From IMG/VR virus record IMGVR_UViG_3300043395_002349, positions 1 to 64,000 of that record: a DNA stretch of 64,000 nucleotides. One strand, written 5' to 3'. Positions 11,378 through 27,795 of this stretch are shown here, one piece after another. The notes beneath the pieces were generated by a model. That model had not been told where the DNA came from. It saw nothing but the letters and a program-made list of their open reading frames with translations, and ran no database searches. Numbering within the stretch: position 1 is the first letter of the stretch; the number at the start of each line of letters is the position of its first letter. The translations under genes and the position numbers were made by a program. The DNA comes from a virus.

Positions 11378-11496
11378 TATACATTTTTGTAAATAAATGG
11401 ATCTCTTTTTCTTAATTCTTTTATTTTCTTTTTAAATTCTCTTTTTAATTTCCAAGCTTTATAAATATTTTTAAGCTTATTAAATAATTTTTTCAT
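11377..11496 (-). CDS. 39-aa basic peptide MKKLFNKLKNIYKAWKLKREFKKKIKELRKRDPFIYKNV
   Basis: Below the ORF-track cutoff. Fills the gap exactly: its ATG lies inside the end of the upstream gene and its stop overlaps the next ATG (TAATG). Confidence 0.75.
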   Translation of the reverse strand: MKKLFNKLKNIYKAWKLKREFKKKIKELRKRDPFIYKNV

Positions 11497-12823: not shown

Positions 12824-13722
12824 ACATTATTTATTTCGTTTTTAATGTATGTTGCAATACTATTTGCAGTTATTCTATGACACTCTATTGTTTGATGATC
12901 ATCATTAACTTTATTTCCATTTAATCTGTAATCCGACTTACTTATCATAAATTTAGGATTATATTGAAATAAATTTACTAACGAGTCAAACTCCTGTCCA
13001 TCATATAAAAGTTTTATGTATCTTTCGTTTAAATAATTATTTTCTTTCAAAAATGGTATGTATTCATTGTGCCAGGTCCATATTCTACATTTAACACCTT
13101 TTTCTTCCAATTCTTTAAATAACTTTTCTACTAATTGTATATTTTGTTTACAAAAATAATCTTCCATTTCTTTATATGAAGAAAAATTATTTATATAAAA
13201 TTGAAAAAATTCTTCATACAATTCATCATCAATTTTTCCTTTAAAATTATCAATTGTATTTTTTTTGGTATTATCCCTCAATCTAATTTGTGCTATATTT
13301 AATGTTACTTTTTTATCTCCCAAATATATTTCATTGTTTCTAAATGGGTCAGTTAATTGTAAAATAACATAATCAATTTCATCAAAATCAAATTTTAAAT
13401 TTAAATCACCATTTAAATAACATTTAGATATTGGATGCTCGCCATGATGACCCATTGAAAATATATATTTTAACCACGCAATAGAACCGTCCTCAGAACC
13501 ACTATTTGTTAATCTATTTACTTCCCATGTCCCTAATTCATTTGCCACTAATCTACTCCATCTATTTGCACAGATAAATTTATATGTAGCATACGAAATA
13601 TATTTTGAATCGAATGTGCCATCGGATATTCTTGCATTTATATCTTTATGATTTGAGTACCATTCTAATCCGCCACCCCAAGTGTGTGAACATCCTATAC
13701 AAACAATACCTTTTTTAAGCAT
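12820..13722 (-). CDS. SGNH hydrolase-like protein
   Basis: GCSHTWGGGL at the N-terminus; DDHQTIECHRITA (DxH) at the C-terminus; paralog of 14232..15110. Confidence 0.6.
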   Translation of the reverse strand: MLKKGIVCIGCSHTWGGGLEWYSNHKDINARISDGTFDSKYISYATYKFICANRWSRLVANELGTWEVNRLTNSGSEDGSIAWLKYIFSMGHHGEHPISKCYLNGDLNLKFDFDEIDYVILQLTDPFRNNEIYLGDKKVTLNIAQIRLRDNTKKNTIDNFKGKIDDELYEEFFQFYINNFSSYKEMEDYFCKQNIQLVEKLFKELEEKGVKCRIWTWHNEYIPFLKENNYLNERYIKLLYDGQEFDSLVNLFQYNPKFMISKSDYRLNGNKVNDDHQTIECHRITANSIATYIKNEINNV

Positions 13723-14260
13723 AATATAATTCCGGATATTCTACCAATACATGAATACCACCTTCTTTGGTTGCGTATTTATAAGCTAATTCAATATCGG
13801 TAGGTGTTTTTAAATCGTGAAATTCAATATTTTTACAAATAGATTTAAATTCTTCAAAATAATTTCCTCTATGTTGGTGACCAGGGTCTAATGGTTTATC
13901 TGAACCCTTGCCTAATCTAATAATTAAATTTGGTTTCCATTTTCCATTGCTCATTAGTCCAATCTTATCAACGTGATTTATTAGTTGATTTGCTGCACAA
14001 ATGATAAAATCCCAACGAGGATAAAATGTAACTACAAATTTACCCTGCATAGCCATTCCTAAACTCATACCCATTTGTGATTCTTCCATTACAGGTACTT
14101 CTATCATTAAATCTTTTGATACATTTCCTAATGTTGTACTCATAGGATTTCCAGGATAAACAATCTGTTGCCCTATGAAAACAATATCATCTTTTTTTGC
14201 TAATTCTGTCATTGCATTTGTTAATGCATCTTTATATGGAGTGTATTCTGGTTGACTCAT
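13715..14260 (-). CDS. ThDP enzyme pyrimidine-binding subunit (PDH E1-beta/transketolase-like; lacks C-terminal domain)
   Basis: YKDALTNAM..IVFIGQ..IEVPVMEESQMGMSLGMA..QLINH..GHQH; only 181 aa. Confidence 0.8.
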   Translation of the reverse strand: MSQPEYTPYKDALTNAMTELAKKDDIVFIGQQIVYPGNPMSTTLGNVSKDLMIEVPVMEESQMGMSLGMAMQGKFVVTFYPRWDFIICAANQLINHVDKIGLMSNGKWKPNLIIRLGKGSDKPLDPGHQHRGNYFEEFKSICKNIEFHDLKTPTDIELAYKYATKEGGIHVLVEYPELYYA

Positions 14261-15110
14261 TTTCTTCTATTTTTTTAATTATTGATTTTGCTATTATATT
14301 ATGTGCTGTAAGTGATGTATGTCCGTTAACTACTCTGATATTTTTTGTTACAAAATATAAATCATCACTTATGCTCATACTTTTTGGTCTATCGTTTCTA
14401 CTTTGTAAATCCCATATTGAATTAAAAGTATTTCCATCTATATCAAATGTAATAAATCTTTCATTTAAAAAAGGATTAGTATGAATAAATGGTATAATAT
14501 CGTTTTGCCATGTTATTAAAAAACATTTTTTAATTCCTTTATGTTCATATTCTTTAAATTTTGTTTCAATAAAATCTGCATAATTTTTTAAATATGAATT
14601 TGTAAATGTATTTATATCGTTATTAAATTTTTGTTCTATGTATTTATCAAATTTTGAATTTTTTATAGAATGTATATCTCTAATGTTACAACTATTAATT
14701 ATGCCTTCAAATTCAAATTTAATTTCTTCTCTAAACATATCCGTAAGTTGCACTACAACGTAATCGAAATCTTCATGAATAAATTTAAAAGCTCTATGTG
14801 CACCTTCTATTCCTAAATTATATGCATATTGATATGCGTTTTCAATTTTATCAATAAACTCAAAAATTTCAGCATTTGTTCCACCATTATTTCTTCTAAC
14901 TACATCAAATGTTTCAAAATAAGATGAAACTTTTCTTGCATATCTATTACATTTAATAAATTCTACTTGTGATGCTGATAGTTTATTTCTATCATATCCT
15001 ATATATTCATAATCATGTATAGGATTATTGTATTCAAAATGTAAATCTGAATAATAATGTAACCCTTCTCCCCAAGTATACGAATCACCTGCAAATATAA
15101 TACCTTTCAT
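14232..15110 (-). CDS. SGNH hydrolase-like protein
   Basis: FAGDSYTWGEGL, NGGTN, C-terminal NGHTSLTAHNIIA. Confidence 0.6.
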   Translation of the reverse strand: MKGIIFAGDSYTWGEGLHYYSDLHFEYNNPIHDYEYIGYDRNKLSASQVEFIKCNRYARKVSSYFETFDVVRRNNGGTNAEIFEFIDKIENAYQYAYNLGIEGAHRAFKFIHEDFDYVVVQLTDMFREEIKFEFEGIINSCNIRDIHSIKNSKFDKYIEQKFNNDINTFTNSYLKNYADFIETKFKEYEHKGIKKCFLITWQNDIIPFIHTNPFLNERFITFDIDGNTFNSIWDLQSRNDRPKSMSISDDLYFVTKNIRVVNGHTSLTAHNIIAKSIIKKIEENESTRIHSI

Positions 15111-16087
15111 TAGTTATTAAATTCATCTTTATGTTCTAAATACCACTCATATGCATTTGCCAACCCATCTTCTAATTTAGTTGTTGCTTGCCATCCTAAT
15201 TTATCATAAATCTTAAATGAATCAATCTTACGCGTTGGAATCATAGAAGGTTTACCTTTAATAAATTCAGTTGGTGCATCAAAATTTGCAATTCGTTTCA
15301 TTGCTTCTAATACTTCTAATACCGAATATACTCTATTAGAACCAATATTGTAAACTTGAAAATCTTCTGTTTCTTTTTCCATAACAATTTGCAATGCTTC
15401 ACAAAAATCTTCAATGTATAATAAATCTCTCAATTCACTACCATCACCCCAAATTGGAATAGGATTCATTTTATCTGCCACTTTTCTTATTGTTGCTGGA
15501 GTAACATGGCATTTATTAAAATCATACTTATCATGCGGTCCAAATAAATTTGCAGGTCTTATTACGGTACATTTCATTGTTGTAGGTAAATATTTTGCAT
15601 ATAATTCACATTGAACCTCTGCATATCTTTTCATCCAACCAACTGGAAAATAAACAGTATATGGAGCATCAAATAAGAAATCAGTTTCTACTACCGGTTT
15701 ATCTCCTTTTGGTGGATAAACAGTATTTGATGATAAGAAAATATAATGTTGAATTTTATTTCTCCAACTTGCATCAATTAAAAAATTATTCATTGCTACG
15801 TTTGGAGTAACATGTGCCAATGGGTCAACAACAGTGTCTACTGCATTTGAAGTACTTGCTGCACAATGATATACTACATCTATATCTTTAGTTGCTGCTA
15901 AACATCCTTCATACGTTTTTAAATCATAGTGTGTATACTCAACACCATCCAATTGTGTTCTTACACCTCTATTGTGTAAATTAATTCTTAAATTTTTATA
16001 ACCTTGTTTATATAATCTATTTGTTAAGTTTTGGCCAACTAAACCGGAACCACCTGTAATTAGGATTTTTGAATCTTTTGTAATCAT
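15110..16087 (-). CDS. NAD(P)-dependent epimerase, GDP-L-fucose synthase-like extended SDR
   Basis: TGGSGLVG, RPANLFGPHD, HVTPATI, WGDGSELRDLLYIED; the YxxxK position reads VGWMK. Confidence 0.85.
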   Translation of the reverse strand: MITKDSKILITGGSGLVGQNLTNRLYKQGYKNLRINLHNRGVRTQLDGVEYTHYDLKTYEGCLAATKDIDVVYHCAASTSNAVDTVVDPLAHVTPNVAMNNFLIDASWRNKIQHYIFLSSNTVYPPKGDKPVVETDFLFDAPYTVYFPVGWMKRYAEVQCELYAKYLPTTMKCTVIRPANLFGPHDKYDFNKCHVTPATIRKVADKMNPIPIWGDGSELRDLLYIEDFCEALQIVMEKETEDFQVYNIGSNRVYSVLEVLEAMKRIANFDAPTEFIKGKPSMIPTRKIDSFKIYDKLGWQATTKLEDGLANAYEWYLEHKDEFNN

Positions 16088-16090
16088 ATT

Positions 16091-16753
16091 TTAATTTTCT
16101 TTGTAATTTAAATTTTTTTCTTTCATTATAAATGCTATTAAAGCCTTTCTGTTAAATATATCAGAAGTTACTTTTTTAACTTCGTGTTCTAAATTTCCAG
16201 TTATAAAATCTAATATTGCTATATTTCCAAACTTAGGTTCTATTTCAATTTTGTTTCCATTTTCATCGGTTATTATCAATTCACCACCCATACCCTTTTC
16301 CCAATCTTTATTTAAATATAAAATAATAACACATAATCTTTTATCATCATTATCATATCCATCTTTATGATTTTTTATAAAACATCCATTATTATAAATT
16401 GATATATTAAATGATGGAGCCCCAAATACATATTGATTTGAATAAAATTCTCTTAATTTAGTGTAGCAATACTGCCCAAGTTCATTTGTTCCAAATATTT
16501 CATTAGTTTTTGATTGAAACCAAAATTGAACAATATCTTTATTATTTAATAATTTTTCTTTTTTTTCATTTTGTATTGCAAAAGTATCATTTTGAATTAT
16601 TTTTACATTATTTACTTCATTTTTAGATAAAATAATTTCAAAACTATCTTCTATTGCTGGTAAGTCAATATATACTTTTTCTAGTAAATTTTCGTATTTT
16701 TCACCAAAAAAATCAATTCCACTTCCTATAATATATCCGTTATCAATTTTCAT
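16091..16753 (-). CDS. 2OG-Fe(II) oxygenase (prolyl-hydroxylase-like)
   Basis: IKNHKDG (HxD), LYLNKDW..GGEL, HEV, distal Arg. Confidence 0.85.
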   Translation of the reverse strand: MKIDNGYIIGSGIDFFGEKYENLLEKVYIDLPAIEDSFEIILSKNEVNNVKIIQNDTFAIQNEKKEKLLNNKDIVQFWFQSKTNEIFGTNELGQYCYTKLREFYSNQYVFGAPSFNISIYNNGCFIKNHKDGYDNDDKRLCVIILYLNKDWEKGMGGELIITDENGNKIEIEPKFGNIAILDFITGNLEHEVKKVTSDIFNRKALIAFIMKEKNLNYKEN

Positions 16754-17468
16754 TTAAAATAACAAAATTAAGATATGCAAACCTATTAAAATCTCCAATC
16801 ACTTTATGTACAGCGTGAACTGGTGTATTTTTTGTAAAATCTAATACGGCATATGTACCTAAAGTTGGATATGCAATATCAATTGTATTTCTTTTATTTT
16901 TTAAAACCAATTCACCACCATTTCCTGCTTTATAGAATTCTTCTGGTGTAAGATATATTAAAACACCACATAATCTATCATTTATTGGTCCATCATCATG
17001 CATTTTTATAAAATCACCTTCGGTATACCAAGTTAATTGGGCCCTCATTTCAAAATTTTTAGCTGTTATATTTTTGTTATATAACTTATTAACTATTTTT
17101 GCACAAAGATTATCTAAAAAAGAATACAATTCATCAAAAAAGAATTCATCAATACCTACTTCTTTTGTAAATTCAGATATATGTGTATGAACTAATTTAT
17201 TTTGTTGGTGTGGTTCATCTAATGGATTTTTACCCATATCAACAAATGTTTTTAATTCTAAAAATTCATCTTTTGTATAATATGCCGAATCTCTTCTTAT
17301 TGGGTGGTTTGCACCACATGAATACAAAAATGTTACAAATTCGTTATTATCTTTAAATTTTATTAAAGTATCATAATAAGATTGTATTTTGATTTTTTCA
17401 TTTTCATTTAAAAATTCCCAAATACTACCTATTTTATATTCATTTTTTTGTATTTCTAAAATATCCAT
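16743..17468 (-). CDS. 2OG-Fe(II) oxygenase
   Basis: IKMHDDG, LIYLT..GGEL, HAV..R. Confidence 0.85.
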   Translation of the reverse strand: MDILEIQKNEYKIGSIWEFLNENEKIKIQSYYDTLIKFKDNNEFVTFLYSCGANHPIRRDSAYYTKDEFLELKTFVDMGKNPLDEPHQQNKLVHTHISEFTKEVGIDEFFFDELYSFLDNLCAKIVNKLYNKNITAKNFEMRAQLTWYTEGDFIKMHDDGPINDRLCGVLIYLTPEEFYKAGNGGELVLKNKRNTIDIAYPTLGTYAVLDFTKNTPVHAVHKVIGDFNRFAYLNFVILNEN

Positions 17469-17469
17469 A

Positions 17470-17985
17470 TTAAATAAGTTTTAATGCTACTTTTTTCTCC
17501 TCTACTCTTGTATTTTCAATTGCAATTAATTCATGTAATTCTCTTCTAATAGAATCCAATCTTTTTCTATCTTCAGATAAATTATCTTCTAATTCTTTTT
17601 CCTTGTCTTTTCTTATTTTTTGATTATACTTGTTCAAATCATCCACAATTTCTTTTCTTAATTTGGAAACTCTTTTTCTTTCTTTTTCTAGTTCTTTTTC
17701 TAAACCCTCTACTTTTTCTTTTTTTATTTTTTCAATTTCTAATTGTGTCAATTCTTCGTATTCTTTATGAATTTTTGCTAATTCATCACCTAAATTTTTT
17801 CTAAGTGTATCAACACGTTCTCTATCCATTGCAATTGAATCTTCTGTTTCTTGTATTTCTTTCCACTCATAATATAATCTGCTGCGCTCGATCATTATTT
17901 TTTCTCGCTCTGCATTAATTATATTTTTTTGTTTTTCTAAATACTCTAATTCTCTATCTATTTCTTTTTGAGATATAACTTTCAT
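17470..17985 (-). CDS. Charged coiled-coil hypothetical protein
   Basis: E/K-rich, with three similar segments (DRERVDTLRKNL, ERKRVSKLRKEI, DRKRLDSIRREL); ends in KLI. Confidence 0.6.
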   Translation of the reverse strand: MKVISQKEIDRELEYLEKQKNIINAEREKIMIERSRLYYEWKEIQETEDSIAMDRERVDTLRKNLGDELAKIHKEYEELTQLEIEKIKKEKVEGLEKELEKERKRVSKLRKEIVDDLNKYNQKIRKDKEKELEDNLSEDRKRLDSIRRELHELIAIENTRVEEKKVALKLI

Positions 17986-18892
17986 ATGTTAATTTTAATG
18001 CTTCTTTAAAACCGTTAAGTGGTAACAAACCTATTTCTTTTTGTTTAGTAGTATCCATTTGTCTACGAATATCACCATTAGGTTTAGTAGTATCCCATTT
18101 GATATATATATCTTTTCCACTAATTTTTATTAGTTGTTCAATCATTGATTTGATTGTGATTTCTTCACCTGCACCAAAGTTAATAGTAGTATGAATTTGT
18201 CTTTCATATAATGATAAAATTGCATTTGCTACATCACCTGCATATACAAAATCTCTGATGGGCGTTCCATCACCCCATGCTTCTATTTCATTTTCTGCTT
18301 CAAATACTTTTTTACATTGAGTTGCAATAACCGTTCCTGTTCCATCAAAATTATCATACTCACCAAAAATGTTTGCTGGTCGTATGATTGCCCAATTTGT
18401 ATAACTATATTGAACTTTATATGCTTCCAATAAAACTTCACCCATTCTCTTACTCCAACTTGGAAACCAGTCTGCTTCTGATGGTAATGTTTTCCACACA
18501 CTATCTTCTACAAATGTTTCTGCCGGAGCGTATACACCAACTGAACTAACAAATATTAACCAAATATTATTCTTTGCACATTGGTTGATAATTTCAGTAT
18601 TGATTTTAAATGATGGATATAAAAAGTCTACTGGTTTTTCTTTAGCTCTTAATGGTGAACCTTTTACTCCAAAACAATTAAATACAACATCCGGAGTTTC
18701 ATAGAAAAATAATTGTTCTATATTTTCTGTTTTTGTTAAATCCATTTCATAGAATGTAAATTTTTGTGATATTGGTAAATCATCAGATTTTTTCATATCT
18801 ACACCAATTACTTCATATCCTTTTGCTAAACATTGTTTTACTAAATGTATTCCTACTAATCCACTGCAGCCTGTTATTAAAACTTTTTTCAT
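17954..18892 (-). CDS. NAD(P)-dependent epimerase, GDP-L-fucose synthase-like extended SDR
   Basis: TGCSGLVG, RPANIFGEYDNF, WGDGTPIRDFVYAGD, WDTTKPNG; the YxxxK position reads PSWSK. Confidence 0.85.
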   Translation of the reverse strand: MKKVLITGCSGLVGIHLVKQCLAKGYEVIGVDMKKSDDLPISQKFTFYEMDLTKTENIEQLFFYETPDVVFNCFGVKGSPLRAKEKPVDFLYPSFKINTEIINQCAKNNIWLIFVSSVGVYAPAETFVEDSVWKTLPSEADWFPSWSKRMGEVLLEAYKVQYSYTNWAIIRPANIFGEYDNFDGTGTVIATQCKKVFEAENEIEAWGDGTPIRDFVYAGDVANAILSLYERQIHTTINFGAGEEITIKSMIEQLIKISGKDIYIKWDTTKPNGDIRRQMDTTKQKEIGLLPLNGFKEALKLTYESYISKRNR

Positions 18893-20184
18893 TATATAAT
18901 TTTTGTTTCTATTAATTTAGAATAATAATCGTAAAGAACTTGATTTCTGTCAAATCCTAATAATAGTTTTTGATTTTGTTCAATTCTATCCATATCAAAG
19001 GTAGGAAGTTTTTCGTTTTCTTCAAAATATTTAATTAATTTTTTAATTTGTTCAAATGTTTTTACTAATCTTAACCAAGGAAATTCTTCACTATCAATAT
19101 AATCATAATCTATAAAAGGTGGAATATAAAATCCCATATCTTCCAAAATTTTTGTTGTATATCTTGGTCCAATTACAATAAACGGATGACAATTCGCAAT
19201 CGGTCTTAATACTTTTTCCGAAATCATTATATCTCTTTCAAAATATTTTGTTTCTAAAACTATTGAAAAATAACTTTCTGCATATAACCAAGCATCATTA
19301 TTCCAATTATGTAAAAGATTTTCAACATATCCTGGATCATTTTTTCTCACATCTACCGATACTTCATCATGTGGTGCATTGTCAATATAAAATTGTTTAT
19401 ATTCATTTAATATTGGCATTCCCATTGTTTCATAAAATTTTACATGTTCATCTGGAAATTCTAAAAAAGAAATATAATTATCTTCTATTAAGTTTTCTAA
19501 TCTACAAAAATTATAAAACCAAAAACGATGTTCTCTTTTTACATTTCGATTAAATGATAAAATCATTTTTCTTTTTCCTACATTTTCATACATTTCTCTA
19601 TTACACACACTAAATATGCTTCCATCGTTTTTAAAATTATGGTCTAAATCATACGTTAAAAATGGAAAAAATATATGGTTTCCTTTTGAAAATTGTTTTA
19701 TATTATAACAAGGTGTTATGGTATATATTTGTGAGTGATATTTGTTATTATTTATCCATTCATAAAATTTTGTATAAACTCCACTTTCATGAAAACTAAC
19801 AAATAAAATTTTGTTTCCCTGTTCTAAAATAGAATCATAATGTGGAAGATATTCATGTAAATCTTCCATGTGAACTTTTGGTGTAACTAAATAATAATTA
19901 GCTACTGCTCCTTCTAATTTTGGTTTATCTGTTAATACAATTTTTAAATCTTTATATTCAAATGCAACTGCATAACGTTTTTCACCATATTTTGCTCTTA
20001 GAAAAATTTCATTCAAACTACTTTGTAATTGTGAATCTCTTATTTCATCAATTACACCTGTAAAGTTATTTGACGCAAACGTTTGTGTAAAATTAAAATC
20101 TTTAACCCCATTTGGTAGTGGGGTAAACCCATCATTTATACCATCATTTGCCCAATTTTCAATATAAAAATTTATTATTTTCAT
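18892..20184 (-). CDS. Putative glycosyltransferase (GT10-like C-terminal motif)
   Basis: LSFNRNVKREHR; SYFSIVLET..ISEKVLRPI..HPFIVIG..LEDMGF. Confidence 0.55.
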   Translation of the reverse strand: MKIINFYIENWANDGINDGFTPLPNGVKDFNFTQTFASNNFTGVIDEIRDSQLQSSLNEIFLRAKYGEKRYAVAFEYKDLKIVLTDKPKLEGAVANYYLVTPKVHMEDLHEYLPHYDSILEQGNKILFVSFHESGVYTKFYEWINNNKYHSQIYTITPCYNIKQFSKGNHIFFPFLTYDLDHNFKNDGSIFSVCNREMYENVGKRKMILSFNRNVKREHRFWFYNFCRLENLIEDNYISFLEFPDEHVKFYETMGMPILNEYKQFYIDNAPHDEVSVDVRKNDPGYVENLLHNWNNDAWLYAESYFSIVLETKYFERDIMISEKVLRPIANCHPFIVIGPRYTTKILEDMGFYIPPFIDYDYIDSEEFPWLRLVKTFEQIKKLIKYFEENEKLPTFDMDRIEQNQKLLLGFDRNQVLYDYYSKLIETKII

Positions 20185-21689
20185 TTTGTTAAAATTGTAT
20201 GAAATAGTTCTTGAATTGTATCATGTGCACTAAATTTTCTACATAGATGTGAATTATAAATTACATCTTCTTTACTATCCATAAATATTTTATGTAATTT
20301 TTTACTATCATTTAATTCCGTTGTTAATTTAAGAACGGCATTCATTCTATCTTTATGATTAAAAATTTTATCATAACTTTCATCATAATATTTGTCAAAA
20401 GTTCTAAATCCTTTTTCTTTACACATTTCCAAATACAACGGGCCGGCTAATGCAATAAATGGATGATAGTATCGTAATCCTTTCACCCCTTTTTCAGAAA
20501 CCTGACAACTAGTAAATGATGATTCAGTAAGTAAAGTCATATATGTTCTTAAAAAGGTAAAATCAAAAGTAGGTTTAGCCCAATCAATCCATCCATAATG
20601 AACTCTTTTCCCTTTAACAAAATATGTAGAATCTTCAAATGTATCTATATCATCTATTTTTATAGAACCCATATCTTTTAATTCTTGCATCCATTTCATG
20701 TTTTGATTAAATTCTTCTTCTGATGTAAATGCTGCAAATCCTCTATATGTATCTTGTCCATATTGAATATCTCTATCATATGGAAAAATCATTGAAAATA
20801 AACAATCTTTTAAAACATTATTTTTATGTAATTGTGATAAATACCAAAATCTATGGTCTTTAAATACTGAACGATTGAATATTAAAAAATTCTTTTCTCT
20901 TGGTCCTTCGTATTCTAACACCTCTTCGTCATATGGATTATTAGAATACGCTCCACATGCAGTTGTGAATAACCAATCAACAAAATGACAATTTATTTTT
21001 TTATAAATAAATTTTCCTTCACAATAACTATTATGTTTTAAATGTATATTAAAATCGGCGTTTACATAATGGATATCAGTAGGGTCTAATCCTAATTCTT
21101 TACAACTCATATAAATTTTTTCAAAAAAAGATTCATAATGAACACCACCTTCGTGGAAAGTTGCAATAATTAATTTACAATCTTTATTTTTAATTGCATT
21201 TATTATTTCATCATTAAAATTAAACAAATGTAATCTATTATGTGATTGTATTTCTTCACAATTTTTTACCGTAAGTGCCGGTCTTTGAAATAAGAAATCT
21301 TCATTACCAAACAAATTAACAATATAAAAGTTTTTTTCTCCTTTTACAATTTCATTTGGTTTAATCAAATTAACTTCAAATTTAGTATCATTTTTTTCAA
21401 AATAATATTTTTTATAATTAATTTCATTAAAATAAAATAAAATATTTTCGTATAGTGTTCTTGTATAAAATACATTAAACGTTTTATCTGGATATTTTGC
21501 AGATAAATTGATTACATTATGATGATCGGTAAATCCTTCGGTAAAGAATTTTTTTGTTGATATTTCATGTAGTTTTATTTGCTCTACTGTACTTAAATAT
21601 GCATCATGTGTTAAACCATTTGGAAAAATAATTCCATCTTGTTCATATTCGTATATAAAATTAATTTTTTCCATTAAAATATAACCCAT
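20181..21689 (-). CDS. Putative glycosyltransferase (GT10-like C-terminal motif)
   Basis: FLIFNRSVFKDHR; TYMTLLTES..VSEKGVKGL..HPFIALAG..GFRTFDKYYDESYD. Confidence 0.55.
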   Translation of the reverse strand: MGYILMEKINFIYEYEQDGIIFPNGLTHDAYLSTVEQIKLHEISTKKFFTEGFTDHHNVINLSAKYPDKTFNVFYTRTLYENILFYFNEINYKKYYFEKNDTKFEVNLIKPNEIVKGEKNFYIVNLFGNEDFLFQRPALTVKNCEEIQSHNRLHLFNFNDEIINAIKNKDCKLIIATFHEGGVHYESFFEKIYMSCKELGLDPTDIHYVNADFNIHLKHNSYCEGKFIYKKINCHFVDWLFTTACGAYSNNPYDEEVLEYEGPREKNFLIFNRSVFKDHRFWYLSQLHKNNVLKDCLFSMIFPYDRDIQYGQDTYRGFAAFTSEEEFNQNMKWMQELKDMGSIKIDDIDTFEDSTYFVKGKRVHYGWIDWAKPTFDFTFLRTYMTLLTESSFTSCQVSEKGVKGLRYYHPFIALAGPLYLEMCKEKGFRTFDKYYDESYDKIFNHKDRMNAVLKLTTELNDSKKLHKIFMDSKEDVIYNSHLCRKFSAHDTIQELFHTILTK

Positions 21690-22309
21690 TTACCTGTTCC
21701 ATAATGCGGCCAAACTTTTTCATAATTGTACCAAATAACTTTTTCTGCAGGTATATCTTTTTTAATTCCACCCCAAGTTGCTTCTGTTGGTGTGTTTGTA
21801 GATACACCATTATCTTCTACAACGAATACAATTGGAAGGTCTAAATTTACTGCGTATTTATGCATTTCATAAAATCCCCCAGTTTCAAATGCCATATCAC
21901 CTACAAAACACCACACTTTGTCATCTTTACCATCTCTTTTATTTGCCAATGCTACACCTGTTGCTATTGGGATGATTGCACCCACAATTGCTGATGCATA
22001 GAATCTTTGTTCTTCACTTACAATTGTAATACTTCTACCTGCTAATATTTCTTCTTCTAACCAAACTGGACAAACTCCTTTGATTAATGCGTGGTAGTGA
22101 GAACGCCAAGTTGAGAATACCCAATCGGTTTCCTTAATACGTTTACCTATTTCAATTAATTCATCTTCGTTTCCACCACTTAAATGAACAGGTCCTTTAA
22201 TTCTACCTGCTTCCCAATGGTCTGCAATCATTCTTTCGTATGCAATAAGTTCATCCTTTGTAAATCTAGCTTCTGATACAATTGGATATTTGTTTAAGTA
22301 ATTTATCAT
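21674..22309 (-). CDS. ThDP enzyme PP-binding subunit (PDH E1-alpha-like, truncated)
   Basis: GPVHLSGGNE, STWRSHYHAL, AIVGA, ThDP motif GDMAFETG..VVEDN; 211 aa. Confidence 0.85.
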   Translation of the reverse strand: MINYLNKYPIVSEARFTKDELIAYERMIADHWEAGRIKGPVHLSGGNEDELIEIGKRIKETDWVFSTWRSHYHALIKGVCPVWLEEEILAGRSITIVSEEQRFYASAIVGAIIPIATGVALANKRDGKDDKVWCFVGDMAFETGGFYEMHKYAVNLDLPIVFVVEDNGVSTNTPTEATWGGIKKDIPAEKVIWYNYEKVWPHYGTGKWVIF

Positions 22310-22932
22310 ATGTATTGTTTAAATATATTTTGTTTTGTTAAATCATTGTACGTTTCCCAATTACCACAGTTTTCATTATAACTATTTAATGTTTTAAATA
22401 TTTCTATTCCTTTTTTTGCGTCTTCTGGTGTCATATACATATGATAACCTATACATTCTAATTCATCTTCATTATACATTGTATTAATATGTCTTCCATC
22501 GTAAATCATAGGTCTACACCAATATACAAAATTTTTATCATTTGTCAAAATCATTCCACCCTTTCCTATATTTAAAATTTTTCTATGGTGAAATGAAAGT
22601 ATCATATAAGTTTCATCCAACGTATCGTAATACATTCCTTCATAAAAAGCAGCTGCAGCATCTACGATTGGTACTCCTCCAAACTTATATTTACCTTCCC
22701 AATGAATTTCATCAAATTTAGGAATATTACCACTATGTATAATTTGCATTGGAACAGATGCATATGTGTTTTTTGGAATTATTATTTCCGTATTTTTTAC
22801 ATTAAGATATTCTAATACCAATTTGATTGCATTTGAATTACTATCACATGCTACTGCATATTTTGACCCACAATAATTTGCAATTAGTTGTTCAAATTCT
22901 AATACTATATCCCAATCATTATTTAATTTCAT
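22306..22932 (-). CDS. DegT/DnrJ/EryC1/StrS-family PLP aminotransferase (short form)
   Basis: FEQLIANYCGSKYAVA, TYASVP, IVDAA, SFHHRKIL..GKGGMILT. Confidence 0.85.
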   Translation of the reverse strand: MKLNNDWDIVLEFEQLIANYCGSKYAVACDSNSNAIKLVLEYLNVKNTEIIIPKNTYASVPMQIIHSGNIPKFDEIHWEGKYKFGGVPIVDAAAAFYEGMYYDTLDETYMILSFHHRKILNIGKGGMILTNDKNFVYWCRPMIYDGRHINTMYNEDELECIGYHMYMTPEDAKKGIEIFKTLNSYNENCGNWETYNDLTKQNIFKQYI

Positions 22933-23614
22933 CTATTGCTTTTTCACCATCAAACCAATATAAACTTCTATGTGGATTTTCGTTTGTAGAATTTGATGTA
23001 TAATAAAATAATCTAAACCCATCTCTATATTCACCATCGGGGCAATCTATCGGATTTGGGTGGCCATGAAATCCTAATTCATCATATTCCCATATAACAC
23101 AATTACCCCAATCTGGAAAATATTTTTGTACACATTTTTTGTTTTGTTTATCCCAAAATTGTATATCTCCATTCCATTTCTTATCCCAATTCCTATTTAA
23201 ATAAATAACTAATGTTAGCACTCTATTCAATTTTATATCAGCTTGCCAATTAAAATCCGTATGTACTTTTAAACTATCACCCTTACCACATCTCATATAT
23301 CCTGCACCATGTAAATGTATATCAGGAATTAAACCATTAATATTTGTTAAATTCTCTAACCACTTTACAAAATCTGATGAATGAAAATAAGAAATTAAAT
23401 CGTATGCAAATGGTGTAGTTGATTGATTATAGTTTGTCCATTCATACATCATTGAACCATTTCTATCAAATACTTTAAATTCTTTTTTCCTAAATTCAAA
23501 CAATTCTTCAACTTCACATTTTAAATTCGCTGCAGCCTGATATGGTAAAAATTTAGGAAATAACCAATGTCGTATTGGTTCTATTTCTTTTATATGTTCT
23601 TTATTTAATATCAT
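22919..23614 (-). CDS. 2OG-Fe(II) oxygenase
   Basis: PDIHLHGAG, LKVHTDFN, YLNRNW..NGD, FHGHP..R..FYYT. Confidence 0.88.
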   Translation of the reverse strand: MILNKEHIKEIEPIRHWLFPKFLPYQAAANLKCEVEELFEFRKKEFKVFDRNGSMMYEWTNYNQSTTPFAYDLISYFHSSDFVKWLENLTNINGLIPDIHLHGAGYMRCGKGDSLKVHTDFNWQADIKLNRVLTLVIYLNRNWDKKWNGDIQFWDKQNKKCVQKYFPDWGNCVIWEYDELGFHGHPNPIDCPDGEYRDGFRLFYYTSNSTNENPHRSLYWFDGEKAIDEIK

Positions 23615-24740
23615 CTATAATTTTTTCAATAAAAGTATTATTTTTAACATACTCATCAAATATTTTTATATTTTCGTTTGCCATTTCATACAATTCAGTT
23701 TTTATTAATTCATATTCTTCAGTTTTTGCTTTAGCTATATAATCAATAATTTGCAATTCGTTTTTTCCTTCAAATCTTTTTAAATTTTTATAATTTAAAA
23801 ATCCAAATTTTTCCATAAAATCATCTGTAATTTTACACATTGCAATAAAAGGTTTTCCGATTGCTAACATATCATATGTTTTTTCGGTCACTAAATTTTT
23901 TTGCATATCGCCATTATCACCATTATCTGTTTCCATTAGGATTGAAATATCACTTTTGATTGTAGTATTTACAAATTTTCTAAAATTAATTTTATAATCT
24001 AAACCACCATTTCCTTGATAAAAATCATCTATTATATATTCATTTGGTAAATTAATAATAAATCCCAAATCTTCTTTGTACATGTCTTTCATTCTTTCAT
24101 ATTGTCCAAATAATTCAGGATTATATTTGTTTAATGTTTCATTTTCCTTTATATTTTTTATATGAAAACTATTTACAGAATAGAATAGATTTTTATATCT
24201 TTTATAAAAATATCTTAAATATTTAATTCTATTTGGCTTGAATGGTAGATAAACTGAAAAATCTAATCTATACTCTTTTTTATTTAATTGTTTAAATGTA
24301 TCTCTTAAATAATAGTGTGTATTCCAATCTCTATGATAAATAAAACGATTTAGTATCAATCCTAAATCAAATATACAATCCTCTTCATCAGTAATTTCAG
24401 ATACTAAATATTTTACATTTGGGTAATCTTTTGATGCTTTTTTAGGTAAATGATGGTCTAAGTTTATTGGGCATAATTCATAAAACATTTTATCAGGATT
24501 TGCTTTAATAATACTTTCCATTTCAGGATAACTTGCACAATCCCACATAAAATTTACATCATAAACAAAATCAGGTTCAAATCGTATATCATGTTTATCA
24601 ATTAAATTGTAATATGCTAATTCCCAATTGTAATCATTCATAAAATACTCATCAAATCTGGTGTTTTTAAACATAAAATAAAACTCACTTGCTCTTGAAA
24701 GTGGAGTCATTGTACCTCTAAAAAAAATTCCTATTTCCAT
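23601..24740 (-). CDS. Putative glycosyltransferase (GT10-like C-terminal motif)
   Basis: SDISILMET..VTEKTYDML..KPFIAM..FGF. Confidence 0.45.
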   Translation of the reverse strand: MEIGIFFRGTMTPLSRASEFYFMFKNTRFDEYFMNDYNWELAYYNLIDKHDIRFEPDFVYDVNFMWDCASYPEMESIIKANPDKMFYELCPINLDHHLPKKASKDYPNVKYLVSEITDEEDCIFDLGLILNRFIYHRDWNTHYYLRDTFKQLNKKEYRLDFSVYLPFKPNRIKYLRYFYKRYKNLFYSVNSFHIKNIKENETLNKYNPELFGQYERMKDMYKEDLGFIINLPNEYIIDDFYQGNGGLDYKINFRKFVNTTIKSDISILMETDNGDNGDMQKNLVTEKTYDMLAIGKPFIAMCKITDDFMEKFGFLNYKNLKRFEGKNELQIIDYIAKAKTEEYELIKTELYEMANENIKIFDEYVKNNTFIEKIIDDIK

Positions 24741-25288
24741 TATCTATCTCTTTTTTGTAATATTGGATTTGTAGTTGGCCATTCCATTTGATATTCCGGG
24801 TCGTTCCATTTTACTACACCTTGTTCATCTGCATCTACATAACCATCTTTGTAGAATAAGTTATAGTGAAACATACAATCAGTTAATGCATAGTGTCCAT
24901 TTGCAAACCCAGGTGGAACTAACACCTGATTTCTTAATCTTTCTGTTATAATAAAACTTTCCCACTCACCATATGTTTTAGATTGAGGTCTCATATCTAA
25001 TACAACTAAATATATATCACCCACTGCTGCTTGTACTAATTTCCACGTTTTATTATCCCAATGTAATCCTCTTAATACACCTTTATAGGAACGAGAAAAT
25101 CTCCCATGAATAGAAAGTTCTTCTTTATTGTAATGTATTTGATTCATTACCGGATGTTCTTCGGAGTGATATGTTGTAAATATTTCCCCTCTATATTCTC
25201 TAAATACCGATGGTTGATACATCGGAACTTCATAACCAAATTTCTTTGATGGAGTAATTTGGAACTCATCCCATTTATTGCTCATCAT
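24740..25288 (-). CDS. rmlC: dTDP-4-dehydrorhamnose 3,5-epimerase-like cupin
   Basis: FREYRG, SYKGVLRGLH, KLV..GDIYLVVLDMR..SKTYGEW, VLVPPGFANG, WNDP..EWP. Confidence 0.85.
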   Translation of the reverse strand: MMSNKWDEFQITPSKKFGYEVPMYQPSVFREYRGEIFTTYHSEEHPVMNQIHYNKEELSIHGRFSRSYKGVLRGLHWDNKTWKLVQAAVGDIYLVVLDMRPQSKTYGEWESFIITERLRNQVLVPPGFANGHYALTDCMFHYNLFYKDGYVDADEQGVVKWNDPEYQMEWPTTNPILQKRDR

Positions 25289-26826: not shown

Positions 26827-27795
26827 TTAAAAGTTTTGTGCGTATCCTAATGGAAAACCGTTTCTAAATTCAGATGTCATTTTTGGAATTAATATCTGGT
26901 ACCCCCTAATCAATTCTTCTATACCCATATCCAGTGTATATTCTGGTTTCCAACCGGTGTTTTCTATTTTTTTGTTTGAAACAATATAATCTCTTTTATC
27001 CGGGTCTTCATAAAAATCTGAGTATGTAATTGCAAAATCAGGAATATGTTGTTGTATTTTTTCTAACAATTCCTGCTTACTTAAATTTGCATTACTTAAT
27101 CCTACATTATAAACATTGTGTTTCATTTTTTCATAATTATTTAATGCCCAAACGAATACGTTTCCAACATCTTGTATATGAATAAAATTACGTTTAAAAT
27201 GTCTTTCAAAGACAGTAATGTATTTATCGGTTAATGCTTTATAAACAAATTCATTAACTAATAAATCTGTTCTCATTCTTGGTGAAACACCAAATACAGT
27301 TGCTAACCGAAAACAAACCGCTGATGAACTTTCTAATAACAATTTTTCCGCTGCTACTTTACTTTCACCATAAACTGAAATTGGATTTAGTGGTGATGTT
27401 TCCGTACATTCTGTTTGTCCTTCACCGATACCATATCCACTATTTGTATTAGGATAAAGTATAATATGATGTTCATCTATTACATCTAATATTGTCTTTA
27501 TTTGCTCAAAGTTAACTTCCCATGCTAATTGTGGGTCTGCTTTACAAGCAGGAAAACCTACAATTGCTGCTAATGGAATAATTACATCATTATCTGCAAC
27601 TAATTTTTGTAATAAATTTTTGTTTCTAACATCACCAAAAATAAATTTGTAATTTATATTGGATACTAATTGTAAGGGTGATAGTTGTTTAAAACTTAAA
27701 TTATCTAAAACGGTAATTTTATGTCCTTGTTCTAACATTTTTTTAGAAATAACCGATCCTAAATAACCTGCCCCACCTGTAATTAAAATATTCAT
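26827..27795 (-). CDS. NAD-dependent epimerase/dehydratase (extended SDR)
   Basis: TGGAGYLG, LAAIVG, YGESK (YxxxK), RLATVFGVSPRMRTDLLVN. Confidence 0.9.
   Translation of the reverse strand: MNILITGGAGYLGSVISKKMLEQGHKITVLDNLSFKQLSPLQLVSNINYKFIFGDVRNKNLLQKLVADNDVIIPLAAIVGFPACKADPQLAWEVNFEQIKTILDVIDEHHIILYPNTNSGYGIGEGQTECTETSPLNPISVYGESKVAAEKLLLESSSAVCFRLATVFGVSPRMRTDLLVNEFVYKALTDKYITVFERHFKRNFIHIQDVGNVFVWALNNYEKMKHNVYNVGLSNANLSKQELLEKIQQHIPDFAITYSDFYEDPDKRDYIVSNKKIENTGWKPEYTLDMGIEELIRGYQILIPKMTSEFRNGFPLGYAQNF

What the first reader, a model, noticed from the sequence alone, without database searches (positions are those of the whole stretch)
13715..25288. Probable branched-chain sugar pathway: minimal split ThDP carboligase plus GDP-fucose-synthase-like SDRs lacking the catalytic Tyr
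Seen: an E1-alpha-like gene (211 aa; GDM replaces GDG) and an E1-beta-like gene (181 aa, Pyr domain only) lie ~7.4 kb apart, with no E2/E3 in the window. Both fucose-synthase-like SDRs have lost the YxxxK Tyr (VGWMK and PSWSK). RmlC-like and DegT-like genes are nearby. Established: E1-alpha/beta pairs in sugar clusters (AviB1/AviB2 in avilamycin) and ThDP enzymes such as YerE transfer a C2 unit from pyruvate onto NDP-4-keto-6-deoxysugars. Inference: the SDRs may epimerise or bind without 4-reduction, leaving a keto sugar for C-branching. The phage would then make a rare branched and possibly aminated sugar.
Basis: partly seen in the sequence, partly recalled or inferred. Interest (0 to 1): 0.72.

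Follow-up and report, generated by a model that had tools for sequence, protein, structure and literature searches.

The report
Minimal thiamine enzyme in phage sugar island
A large uncultured marine phage carries a stripped-down two-part vitamin-B1 enzyme among genes that make an activated 4-keto sugar, so it most likely adds a two-carbon branch to that sugar; the same unstudied module is common in ocean phages and in bacteria such as SAR11.

Summary
There is a 211-aa E1-alpha-like gene (GDM...EDN cofactor motif) and a 181-aa E1-beta-like gene (Pyr domain only) 7.4 kb apart. The 100-kb contig has no E2, lipoyl or transketolase-C domain. Both GMER-like SDRs lack Tyr at the YxxxK position.

New here:
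- In 132 related phage and cellular loci alpha and beta always co-occur. They are adjacent in most cellular loci and fused in about 62 cyanophage-type contigs.
- Their constant partners are an RmlC-like C3/C5 epimerase and one 4-keto-generating enzyme. That enzyme is either a Cj1427-like GDP-sugar C4-dehydrogenase (present here at 26827-27795) or GDP-mannose 4,6-dehydratase, never both.

This supports ThDP-dependent C2 transfer onto a GDP-4-keto sugar, as in alphaKADH2-type enzymes. It is inferred, not shown.

The SDR reading is only partly right:
- SDR1 keeps an invariant Tyr three residues upstream of the canonical position (seven before the Lys), on the same helix face in the model. SDR2 has no conserved Tyr.
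- The two SDRs always occur together, are sometimes fused to each other or to a 2OG oxygenase, and are dispensable for alpha/beta.

The DegT-like gene is a lineage-specific insert from a real family of about 210 aa. This scan has found the same module in many other genomes. I found no published study.

The parts
26827..27795 (-). SDR3: Cj1427-like GDP-sugar C4-dehydrogenase (canonical YGESK). It is the predicted 4-keto generator of the module and lies just outside the finding's coordinates.
   Evidence: phmmer against PDB 6VO6/6VO8: E = 4e-111 over residues 2-303. Present in 33 of 38 phage loci with full context and never together with GMD.
24740..25288 (-). RmlC-like cupin, predicted GDP-4-keto-sugar C3/C5 epimerase.
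   Evidence: PF00908, 5e-32. Best PDB matches are C. jejuni GDP-4-keto-heptose 3- and 3,5-epimerases 8dco, 8dcl and 7ani, E about 1e-33. The RGxH, KLV, YxLxY and C-terminal RD residues align. Present in 34 of 38 phage loci.
21674..22309 (-). Mini E1-alpha: the PP (diphosphate-binding) domain only, with ThDP/Mg motif GDM-X26-EDN.
   Evidence: PF00676, 6e-17, profile positions 12-170 of 300. Alignment to human E1-alpha. 115 clusters at 50% identity with E <= 1e-30, mostly 195-255 aa. GDM in 53 of 77 cellular homologues.
13715..14260 (-). Mini E1-beta: the Pyr (pyrimidine-binding) domain only, with the catalytic Glu and a conserved QH.
   Evidence: PF02779, 1e-7. Alignments to E1-beta structures 1ik6 and 1um9. 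Glu, Gln and His invariant in 69 of 69 sequences. Present with alpha in 48 of 52 viral and 73 of 80 cellular loci.
15110..16087 (-). SDR1: GMER / C. jejuni C4-reductase-like extended SDR. Val sits at the canonical Tyr position and an invariant Tyr146 sits at K-7.
   Evidence: AF2 model pLDDT 91.7, helix 144-166. Best fold match is 8ewu, a GDP-6-deoxy-4-keto-heptose 4-reductase, TM 0.85. NF047922 scores 142 bits against a cut-off of 500.
17954..18892 (-). SDR2: GMER-like extended SDR with no conserved Tyr (motif D-W-F-P-S-W-S-K). The Cys109 and His179 equivalents are also lost. It is an obligate partner of SDR1.
   Evidence: SDR1 and SDR2 co-occur in 28 of 28 phage loci that have either. SDR2-SDR1 and SDR2-2OG fusions exist in relatives.
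16091..17468 (-). Two tandem 2OG-Fe(II) oxygenases (16091-16753 and 16743-17468) between SDR2 and SDR1.
   Evidence: PF13640, 9e-13 and 9e-7. A homologous domain is fused to SDR2 in L021, L036, L039, L042 and L052, and to both SDRs in L034.
17470..17985 (-). 171-aa protein rich in Glu, Lys and Arg, predicted coiled coil, function unknown.
   Evidence: No significant Pfam match. Homologues in 8 related loci.
22306..22932 (-). Mini-DegT: a 208-aa PLP aminotransferase-like protein that keeps the DAA Asp and the SFxxxK Lys. It is a lineage-specific insert next to E1-alpha.
   Evidence: PF01041, 4e-21. Best PDB matches are GDP-perosamine synthases 3bn1 and 3dr7. Found in only 1 of 52 related loci. 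It belongs to a large family of 205-213-aa proteins (973 hits).
22919..23614 (-). Third 2OG-Fe(II) oxygenase, part of the same lineage-specific insert.
   Evidence: PF13640, 1.5e-14. Found in 1 of 52 loci.
18892..21689 (-). Two paralogous proteins of unknown family (430 and 502 aa), candidate glycosyltransferases. Further paralogues lie at 23601-24740 and 11480-12823.
   Evidence: No Pfam or PDB sequence match. They share a C-terminal ETSF...SEK...HPF motif. The ESM Atlas gives only a weak lead to GT10, cosine 0.80-0.81.
23601..24740 (-). Paralogue (379 aa) of the candidate glycosyltransferases, part of the lineage-specific insert.
14232..15110 (-). SGNH/GDSL-like protein (N-terminal G-D-S motif). 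A paralogue lies at 12820-13722. Candidate sugar O-acyl esterase or transferase.
   Evidence: No Pfam match. ESM Atlas lead: Lipase_GDSL on 17% of the members of one near cluster. Present in 25 related loci.
25275..26825 (-). Twitch-domain radical SAM protein between SDR3 and RmlC. A paralogue lies at 28482-29873.
   Evidence: NF033640, 6e-94 and 4e-96. Present in about 25 related loci.

Best explanation
The finding is the middle of a glycan-biosynthesis island of about 28 kb (roughly 9.6-38.2 kb) in a large marine phage. The conserved core has four enzymes.

1. A Cj1427-like SDR oxidises C4 of a GDP-sugar (GDP-heptose or GDP-mannose type) to the 4-ketone. This is inferred from very strong homology.
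2. An RmlC-like cupin epimerises C3 and/or C5. This is inferred from homology and conserved catalytic residues.
3. The mini E1-alpha (PP domain) and mini E1-beta (Pyr domain) assemble into a minimal ThDP enzyme with no E2-docking parts.
4. That enzyme decarboxylates pyruvate and adds the resulting C2 unit to the C4 carbonyl. The product would be a 4-C-acetyl tertiary-alcohol branched sugar, as alphaKADH2-type E1 pairs do in actinomycete antibiotic sugars. This step is inferred from gene context and analogy only.

In this phage a cassette has been inserted between alpha and beta. It holds SDR2, two 2OG oxygenases and SDR1. SDR1 has a Tyr relocated to K-7, SDR2 has no conserved Tyr, and the two probably work as a heterodimer. 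The cassette tailors the product further, most plausibly by acting on the branch carbonyl or on a displaced ketone. This last point is speculative.
For: Pairing of alpha and beta:
- They co-occur in 38/38 phage and 38/38 cellular loci with at least 7 kb on each side.
- They are directly adjacent in 8 phage loci and in most of 73 cellular loci.
- They are fused in 62 cyanophage-type contigs, including S-SM2 and P-TIM68.
- The AF2 model of the fusion (pLDDT 83.7, pTM 0.88) matches transketolase over both domains, TM 0.63-0.67.

Active-site residues are kept:
- GD(M)-X26-EDN in alpha, plus an invariant C-terminal P-H.
- Glu and QH are invariant in beta.

Not a dehydrogenase complex: no E2, lipoyl or TK_C domain on the contig.

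Link to 4-keto sugars:
- GMD or the Cj1427-like SDR is present in 37/38 phage and 27/38 cellular loci, and never both.
- In one locus type GMD sits between alpha and beta.
- The compact SDR3-RmlC-alpha-beta loci carry none of the GMER-like SDR1/SDR2 reductases; a reductase of another family in those loci is not excluded, because several neighbouring ORFs have no family match.
- Different oxidoreductases sit next to other clades of the pair: Zn-ADH in 60/62 fused loci and an aldo-keto reductase in 11 cellular loci. This parallels Pau7, which reduces the C4' acetyl branch (PMC4753412).

Literature: E1-alpha/beta-like pairs attach a pyruvate-derived C2 unit to keto sugars, and KbDH-alpha/beta has been shown to do so in vitro (PMC12247030, PMC4802897).
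Against: - No member of the short family has been assayed. Donor, acceptor and the carbon attacked are all inferred.
- As far as I recall, characterised alphaKADH2 enzymes are full-length E1 subunits. This pair lacks the alpha C-terminal half and the beta C-terminal domain.
- I did not test whether it groups phylogenetically with them.
- The contig (53% complete) has no nucleotidyltransferase or heptose-phosphate genes, so the substrate must come from the host or from the unsequenced half.
- 11 of 38 cellular loci show no recognised 4-keto generator within 10 kb.
- That PDB 6VO6 is Cj1427 rests on my memory and on the depositor's molecule name. I could not confirm it in the paper library.
Confidence: 0.55

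Rival explanations
1. The island only makes unbranched epimers of GDP-heptose or GDP-6-deoxyhexose, as in the C. jejuni capsule: C4 oxidation, C3/C5 epimerisation, then C4 reduction by SDR1/SDR2. Under this reading the ThDP pair does something else, for example making an acyl or hydroxyethyl group for O- or N-decoration, or decarboxylating a 2-oxo acid.
For: SDR3, the RmlC-like protein and SDR1 find their closest solved relatives in the C. jejuni trio Cj1427, Cj1430/MlghB and the C4-reductases. SDR1 keeps Ser, Lys and a conserved nearby Tyr. DegT-type aminotransferases accompany the pair in 20 cellular loci.
Against: Alpha and beta persist in compact loci that have no SDR1 or SDR2. Both SDRs score far below the GDP-fucose-synthase cut-off, 142 and 137 bits against 500. 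No acyltransferase is consistently linked to the pair.
Confidence: 0.17
2. The pair is a miniature transketolase- or DXS-like enzyme. It would supply or remodel a sugar-phosphate precursor (for example sedoheptulose 7-phosphate for heptose synthesis) rather than act on the nucleotide sugar.
For: The fused form's model is closest in fold to transketolases. Many cellular and cyanophage loci carry GmhA, a GHMP kinase and a nucleotidyltransferase of the GDP-heptose route.
Against: Sequence profiles favour E1_dh over transketolase or DXS (6e-17 against 1e-5). The SAR11-type cassette GMD-alpha-beta-SDR2-RmlC-SDR1 has no heptose genes. 12 cellular loci carry a separate genuine split transketolase as well.
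Confidence: 0.12
3. An auxiliary metabolic gene pair that supports host pyruvate or acetoin metabolism.
For: The best profile hits are PDH E1 alpha and beta, and JGI names homologues 'pyruvate/acetoin dehydrogenase alpha subunit'.
Against: Scores are far below the equivalog cut-offs (91 bits against 394). The regions that contact E2 are absent, there are no E2 or lipoyl genes, and the pair is always embedded in sugar clusters.
Confidence: 0.03
4. The short subunits and the Tyr-less SDRs are decaying remnants with no activity.
For: The domains are truncated and canonical motifs are changed (GDM for GDG, loss of YxxxK).
Against: Lengths and variant motifs are conserved across dozens to hundreds of homologues in phages, bacteria and archaea down to about 32-45% identity. 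The frames are intact and tightly packed.
Confidence: 0.02

Closest known systems
alphaKADH2-type (E1-alpha/E1-beta) sugar C-branching ThDP enzymes: AviB1/AviB2, Pau11/Pau12 (Plm8/Plm9), the aldgamycin and kosinostatin pairs, and KbDH-alpha/beta
   Same: A two-subunit E1-type ThDP enzyme with no E2 or E3, encoded inside a nucleotide-sugar cluster next to enzymes that make and epimerise a keto sugar. A separate oxidoreductase for the branch ketone often lies nearby (PMC12247030, PMC4802897, PMC4753412).
   Different: - Here each subunit is cut down to its single cofactor-binding domain (211 and 181 aa).
- The motif is GDM rather than GDG.
- The sugar is apparently GDP-linked (heptose or mannose type) rather than dTDP-deoxyhexose.
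- The setting is phage or cell-surface glycan rather than an actinomycete antibiotic.
- No biochemical data exist for the short family.
Campylobacter jejuni capsular heptose pathway: Cj1427 (MlghA), Cj1430 (MlghB) and Cj1428 (MlghC)
   Same: SDR3, the RmlC-like protein and SDR1 have these enzymes as their closest solved relatives. The order of chemistry matches: C4 oxidation, C3/C5 epimerisation, then action at the ketone.
   Different: C. jejuni has no ThDP enzyme in this pathway. Its C4-reductases keep the S-Y-K triad, whereas SDR1 has Val at the canonical Tyr position and SDR2 has Pro.
YerE (yersiniose A) and YerE-like ThDP carboligases of LPS pathways
   Same: The proposed reaction is the same: a pyruvate-derived C2 unit added to the C4 carbonyl of a nucleotide-activated 4-keto sugar destined for a surface glycan.
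   Different: YerE is a single-chain enzyme of the decarboxylase/acetolactate-synthase superfamily. The pair here belongs to the E1/transketolase-like superfamily. YerE/ALS-like genes also occur in 12 of the cellular loci.
Fused 'transketolase central region-containing protein' of cyanomyophages S-SM2 (SSM2_198) and P-TIM68 (gp190)
   Same: Homologous PP and Pyr domains (about 43% and 33% identity) sit inside phage sugar or heptose islands.
   Different: It is a single chain of about 400 aa with canonical GDG. A Zn-dependent alcohol dehydrogenase almost always lies immediately upstream (60/62), instead of the Cj1427-like, RmlC and SDR1/2 partners.

Membership tests
alphaKADH2-type sugar C-branching E1-alpha/beta ThDP enzymes | E1-type PP domain with a ThDP/Mg2+-binding motif, and an E1-type Pyr domain with the cofactor-activating Glu | tested here: met
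   PF00676 6e-17 and PF02779 1e-7. GDM-X26-EDN aligns with GDG...ENN of human E1-alpha. Glu is invariant in 69 of 69 beta homologues.
alphaKADH2-type sugar C-branching E1-alpha/beta ThDP enzymes | Full-length E1 subunits (alpha about 320-370 aa; beta with a Transketolase_C domain) | tested here: not met
   Alpha covers only profile positions 12-170 of 300, and beta has the Pyr domain only. There is no PF02780 on the contig. That characterised members are full length is from my own knowledge.
alphaKADH2-type sugar C-branching E1-alpha/beta ThDP enzymes | Stand-alone (no E2/E3) and encoded within a nucleotide-sugar cluster that makes a keto sugar | tested here: met
   (no E2 or lipoyl domain). 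(GMD or the Cj1427-like SDR, plus RmlC, as constant neighbours).
alphaKADH2-type sugar C-branching E1-alpha/beta ThDP enzymes | Pyruvate-dependent C2 transfer to a ketone acceptor | not testable with these tools
   Needs an enzyme assay.
alphaKADH2-type sugar C-branching E1-alpha/beta ThDP enzymes | Phylogenetic grouping with characterised members rather than with PDH, BCKDH or AcoAB E1 | not tested
   No tool gave me sequences of AviB1, Pau11 or KbDH-alpha.
Pyruvate / 2-oxoacid dehydrogenase E1 (PDH, BCKDH, AcoAB) | Equivalog-level score, an E2-interacting C-terminal domain, and E2/E3 partners | tested here: not met
   TIGR03182 scores 90.8 bits against a cut-off of 394, and NF006667 41 against 321. 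No TK_C, E2 or lipoyl domain.
GDP-L-fucose synthase (GMER/Fcl) | Ser107-Tyr136-Lys140 triad plus the Cys109/His179 epimerisation pair, and the NCBIfam equivalog score | tested here: not met
   NF047922 scores 142 bits (SDR1) and 137 bits (SDR2) against a cut-off of 500. In SDR1, Tyr becomes Val and Cys becomes Thr. In SDR2, Tyr becomes Pro, Cys becomes Gly and His becomes Tyr.
Cj1427-type GDP-sugar C4-dehydrogenase | Close full-length homology to Cj1427 with a canonical YxxxK | tested here: met
   E = 4e-111 to PDB 6VO6/6VO8 over residues 2-303, and YGESK is present. Equating 6VO6 with Cj1427 is from memory. Tight NADH binding and the need for alpha-ketoglutarate cannot be tested here.
RmlC-like GDP-4-keto-heptose C3/C5 epimerases (MlghB/DdahB/Cj1430) | Cupin fold with the catalytic His, the Tyr pair, Asn and C-terminal Asp named in PMC7949155 | tested here: met
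   In the alignment to 8dco the RGxH, N-x-H-Y, Y-x-L-x-Y and C-terminal R-D residues are conserved, E = 4.5e-34.
DegT/DnrJ/EryC1 sugar aminotransferases | PLP-binding Lys and Asp within a fold-type I chain of about 360-390 aa | tested here: inconclusive
   The Lys (SFHHRK) and the DAA Asp align with perosamine synthase 3bn1. The chain is only 208 aa, and the whole family is 205-213 aa. Activity is unknown.

The most novel reading that the evidence does not exclude
The SDR1/SDR2/2OG-oxygenase cassette would be a new kind of tailoring machine for the C2 branch. It would be a heterodimer of one SDR whose catalytic Tyr has moved one helical turn (YxxxxxxK) and one Tyr-less, probably non-catalytic SDR. 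In some phages it is physically fused to a 2OG oxygenase. It would reduce and/or hydroxylate the side-chain ketone of a GDP-4-C-acetyl heptose or hexose. The result would be a class of branched octose or nonose sugars not yet described, on SAR11-type cells and on their phages.
Probability: 0.2. Interest if true: 0.8.

Novelty: new variant of a known kind. Interest (0 to 1): 0.6.

Why it matters
If the pair really branches GDP-4-keto sugars, three things follow.
- C-branched sugars, known mostly from a few LPS types and actinomycete antibiotics, would be common surface components in the ocean's most abundant bacteria, in ultra-small bacteria and archaea, and in the phages that infect them. That bears on phage-host recognition.
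- The enzyme would be the smallest known E1-type ThDP carboligase: one PP and one Pyr domain, about 390 aa in total. That makes it attractive for structural work. The 2025 review PMC12247030 notes that no alphaKADH2 structure exists. It is also attractive for biocatalytic synthesis of tertiary alcohols.
- The SDR pair offers a natural test of how far the SDR catalytic Tyr can be moved or dispensed with.

Tried and rejected
- Megablast of 13-26 kb against the phage collection found nothing. The phage has no close named relative. Only its DnaE-like polymerase is 55% identical to that of huge phage LR756508.
- The GT-like paralogues gave no Pfam or PDB sequence match even at relaxed thresholds. 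The ESM Atlas gave only a sub-threshold GT10 lead, so I do not call them GT10.
- I tried to confirm in the paper library that PDB 6VO6 is Cj1427. The two primary papers are not held and a text search for '6VO6' found nothing relevant.
- I tried to fold the natural SDR2-SDR1 fusion with an alignment. MAFFT stacked both paralogue sets on the first half, so I folded SDR1 alone instead.
- The tools return no coordinates, so the distance from Tyr146 to the nicotinamide or substrate could not be measured. Only the helix register could be read.
- I rejected a PDH-type auxiliary metabolic gene and pseudogene decay (see rivals).
- I rejected SDR4 (35625-36467) as a 4,6-dehydratase. Its best matches are 4-epimerases and UXS, and only a weak hit to GMD was found.
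- No tRNA genes lie in the window. The host remains unassigned.

Full report
**Setting**

The window is the first 64 kb of a 100,089-bp IMG/VR virus contig that CheckV estimates as 53% complete. It has about 28% G+C and every gene lies on the minus strand. A T4-type terminase and a short DnaE-like polymerase mark it as a large tailed phage. The polymerase is 55% identical to that of the 484-kb uncultured phage LR756508. Megablast found no close DNA relative among named phages.

The finding lies inside a much longer sugar island, roughly 9.6-38.2 kb. Outside the finding's coordinates the island also holds:
- two twitch-type radical SAM genes;
- a third and a fourth SDR;
- three GT7 + LamG genes;
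- a GT2 and a methyltransferase.

**Observation**

The alpha gene (21674-22309, 211 aa) matches only the first half of the E1 profile (PF00676 positions 12-170 of 300, E = 6e-17). Aligned to human PDH E1-alpha, YGDGA corresponds to VGDMA and the Mg-binding ENN to EDN.

The beta gene (13715-14260, 181 aa) matches only the Pyr domain. It keeps the Glu that activates ThDP.

The two genes are 7,414 bp apart. The whole contig has no E2 catalytic domain, no lipoyl domain and no transketolase C-terminal domain. The same searches hit 10 to 14 of 14 control genomes.

SDR1 (15110-16087) aligns end to end with E. coli GMER. Val149 falls on Tyr136, Lys153 on Lys140 and Thr on Cys109, while Ser107 and His179 are kept. 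SDR2 (17954-18892) reads P-S-W-S-K at that place and has also lost the Cys109 and His179 equivalents. Both score about 140 bits on the GDP-fucose-synthase equivalog model, whose cut-off is 500.

**The ThDP pair is a real, conserved, two-part enzyme**

- Alpha homologues of 75-93% identity and the same length are very abundant in metagenomes.
- A search of 1.84 billion representatives found 115 clusters at 50% identity with E <= 1e-30. Nearly all are 195-255 aa and a few are 394-408 aa.
- I fetched 52 viral loci and 80 loci from cellular genome assemblies and mapped all island proteins onto them.
- Beta accompanies alpha in 48 of 52 viral and 73 of 80 cellular loci. The exceptions are loci cut by contig ends.
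- Among loci with at least 7 kb on both sides, the figures are 38 of 38 and 38 of 38.
- In 8 viral loci and in most cellular ones the two genes are adjacent. In 7 viral loci a single gene, GDP-mannose 4,6-dehydratase, sits between them.
- So the 7.4-kb separation in this window comes from a cassette inserted between two ancestrally neighbouring genes.

In cyanomyophages S-SM2 and P-TIM68, and in about 60 further viral contigs, the two domains are fused into one protein of about 400 aa. An AlphaFold model of that fusion is confident (pLDDT 83.7, pTM 0.88). It superposes on transketolases over both domains (TM 0.63-0.67). This amounts to a complete PP + Pyr catalytic core without the third domain.

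The variant motif GDM is the family norm, not a defect. It occurs in all 42 distinct phage sequences and in 53 of 77 cellular ones, always followed by EDN at a fixed spacing. In beta, the Glu and a Q-H pair are invariant in 69 sequences.

The cellular carriers include:
- many Pelagibacteraceae single-cell genomes and MAGs;
- SAR116 and Chloroflexota;
- Patescibacteria;
- DPANN archaea.

**What the pair travels with**

The conserved order in the phage loci is SDR3, RmlC-like, alpha, [variable insert], beta.

SDR3 (26827-27795) matches PDB 6VO6/6VO8 with E = 4e-111. [quoted passage not shown] I could not confirm the PDB code in the library.

The closest solved relatives of the RmlC-like protein are the C. 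jejuni GDP-4-keto-heptose C3 and C3/C5 epimerases. Their catalytic residues are conserved in it.

Across loci with full context, either this Cj1427-like SDR or GMD is present in 37 of 38 phage and 27 of 38 cellular loci, and never both. That mutual exclusion is what two alternative suppliers of one intermediate, a GDP-4-keto sugar, would show.

In the cellular loci the further frequent neighbours are:
- the GDP-heptose route (SIS/GmhA, GHMP kinase, nucleotidyltransferase);
- DegT aminotransferases;
- B12-radical SAM enzymes;
- an aldo-keto reductase;
- a YerE/acetolactate-synthase-like ThDP enzyme;
- a separate split transketolase.

The SAR11-type cassette is GMD-alpha-beta-SDR2-RmlC-SDR1 (for example L079). 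The contig itself has no GMD orthologue and no nucleotidyltransferase. The GDP-sugar must therefore come from the host or from the unsequenced half.

**Most likely mechanism**

E1-alpha/beta-like pairs without E2/E3 in sugar clusters are the alphaKADH2 type of ThDP enzyme. They decarboxylate pyruvate and add the C2 unit to a ring ketone of a nucleotide sugar, giving a tertiary alpha-hydroxy ketone. Known cases are aldgamycin, avilamycin, paulomycin and kosinostatin. KbDH-alpha/beta has been characterised in vitro with pyruvate as donor (PMC12247030, PMC4802897).

The branch ketone is then often reduced, for example by the aldo-keto reductase Pau7 (PMC4753412), or transaminated.

The context here fits that scheme:
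- a 4-keto generator;
- an epimerase;
- the ThDP pair;
- in different clades, a neighbouring oxidoreductase of a different family. This is SDR1/SDR2 here, an AKR in 11 cellular loci, and a Zn-ADH directly upstream of the fused form in 60 of 62 loci.

Compact phage loci have only SDR3-RmlC-alpha-beta and none of the GMER-like SDR1/SDR2 reductases; several neighbouring ORFs there have no family match, so another kind of reductase is not excluded.

What is shown: homology, conserved active-site residues, pairing and fusion, and the context statistics. What is inferred: the donor (pyruvate), the acceptor (GDP-4-keto heptose or hexose), the carbon attacked (C4) and the product. I put this reading at about 0.55.

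**The SDRs**

It is a conserved family trait. VGWMK and PSWSK, or close variants, are kept in 26-27 distinct phage homologues and in cellular ones.

The inference that they therefore cannot reduce needs correction for SDR1:
- Among 48 Tyr-less SDR1-type sequences, the position seven residues before the Lys is Tyr in 45. Canonical GMER-like neighbours have Asn there.
- In a 21-sequence alignment reaching 32% identity, Tyr146, Val149, Lys153 and Ser119 are invariant.
- In the AF2 model (pLDDT 91.7) a single helix runs from 144 to 166. Tyr146 and Lys153 are seven residues apart in that helix and so lie on the same face. The Tyr sits one turn further from the Lys than the canonical Tyr would.
- The best fold match is a C. 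jejuni GDP-6-deoxy-4-keto-heptose 4-reductase (TM 0.85).
- A relocated catalytic Tyr is therefore plausible. I could not measure distances because no coordinates are returned.

SDR2 is different. K-7 is Asp in 45 of 45 sequences, K-4 is Pro in 36 and K-2 is Trp in 43. No conserved Tyr exists nearby.

SDR1 and SDR2 always occur together (28 of 28 phage loci; 17 of 19 cellular). They are fused into one 634-aa protein in L044 and L045. SDR2 is fused to a 2OG oxygenase in five loci. All three are fused into an 870-aa protein in L034. This points to a heteromeric unit in which SDR2 may be non-catalytic.

The pair is absent from 10 of 38 phage loci that keep alpha and beta. It is therefore an accessory to the ThDP step, not a precondition for it. 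Its target is unknown: it could be the branch carbonyl, a ring ketone or something else.

**DegT-like gene**

This gene, the adjacent 2OG oxygenase and one GT-like paralogue occur in only one of the 52 related loci (L013). They form a recent insert between RmlC and alpha.

The protein is only 208 aa but is not a fragment. 973 homologues of 205-213 aa were found at 57-88% identity among the best 120 listed. It keeps the PLP Lys and the Asp of perosamine synthase.

Whether it aminates C4 of the unbranched 4-keto sugar or the branch ketone is open.

**Comparison and novelty**

In working principle the closest known systems are the alphaKADH2 sugar-branching pairs. In its other enzymes the closest is the C. 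jejuni heptose pathway.

Membership in the alphaKADH2 group is met for cofactor motifs, stand-alone status and context. It is not met for subunit architecture. It is untested for phylogeny and activity.

I found no paper on the short family. The 2025 review states that alphaKADH2 enzymes are known mainly from specialised metabolites and that no structure exists (PMC12247030).

This scan has flagged the same module many times in other genomes, and follow-up notes reached similar readings. Those are not independent evidence.

I rate it a new variant of a known kind, with interest 0.6.

Noticed in passing
window 22306-22932: The half-size DegT-like protein (208 aa) belongs to a large, length-conserved family of 205-213-aa proteins. 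There were 973 hits, at 57-88% identity among the best 120 listed. The family keeps the PLP Lys and Asp but lacks most of the C-terminal domain of normal sugar aminotransferases of about 370 aa.
   Followed up: partly
L044:2093-3997, L045:11965-13869, L034:13043-15655, L036:11876-13525: Natural fusions occur in related phage contigs: SDR2-SDR1 (634 aa), SDR2-2OG oxygenase (about 550 aa) and SDR2-2OG-SDR1 (870 aa). They tie the 2OG-Fe(II) oxygenases of marine phages to nucleotide-sugar chemistry.
   Followed up: partly
L137-L198 (S-SM2-type viral contigs); L002:10969-13191: In the clade with fused alpha-beta, a Zn-dependent alcohol dehydrogenase gene lies immediately upstream in 60 of 62 loci. 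This is a different, tightly coupled partner from the one in the split clade.
   Followed up: partly
window 11480-12823, 18892-20184, 20181-21689, 23601-24740: Four paralogous proteins of 380-500 aa share a C-terminal ETSF...SEK...HPF motif and have no Pfam or PDB sequence match. A language-model search gives only a weak lead (0.80-0.81) to GT10 fucosyltransferases.
   Followed up: partly
L058 (VHCC01000006.1, 'Pelagibacterales' MAG) and L059 (Flavobacteriales MAG): These 'cellular' contigs carry the phage-type gene order (GT7, radical SAM, SDR3, RmlC, alpha ... beta) at about 60% identity. They are probably phage contigs binned into MAGs, so they are weak evidence for a host.
   Followed up: no
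cellular loci L057-L136: A B12-binding radical SAM enzyme (28 loci) and a second radical SAM family (13 loci) are frequent neighbours of the mini-E1 pair. In the phage their place is taken by twitch-type radical SAM proteins (25275-26825 and 28482-29873). Their role is unknown.
   Followed up: no
window 17470-17985: A 171-aa protein very rich in Glu, Lys and Arg, predicted coiled coil, sits between SDR2 and the 2OG oxygenases. It recurs, sometimes duplicated, in 8 related loci.
   Followed up: no
window 21674-22309 and A1: An invariant P-H near the C-terminus of mini-alpha (W-P-H-Y-G-T-G-K-W) is conserved even in the fused cyanophage forms. It could stand in for the catalytic His that full-length E1-alpha supplies from its missing C-terminal half.
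   Followed up: no
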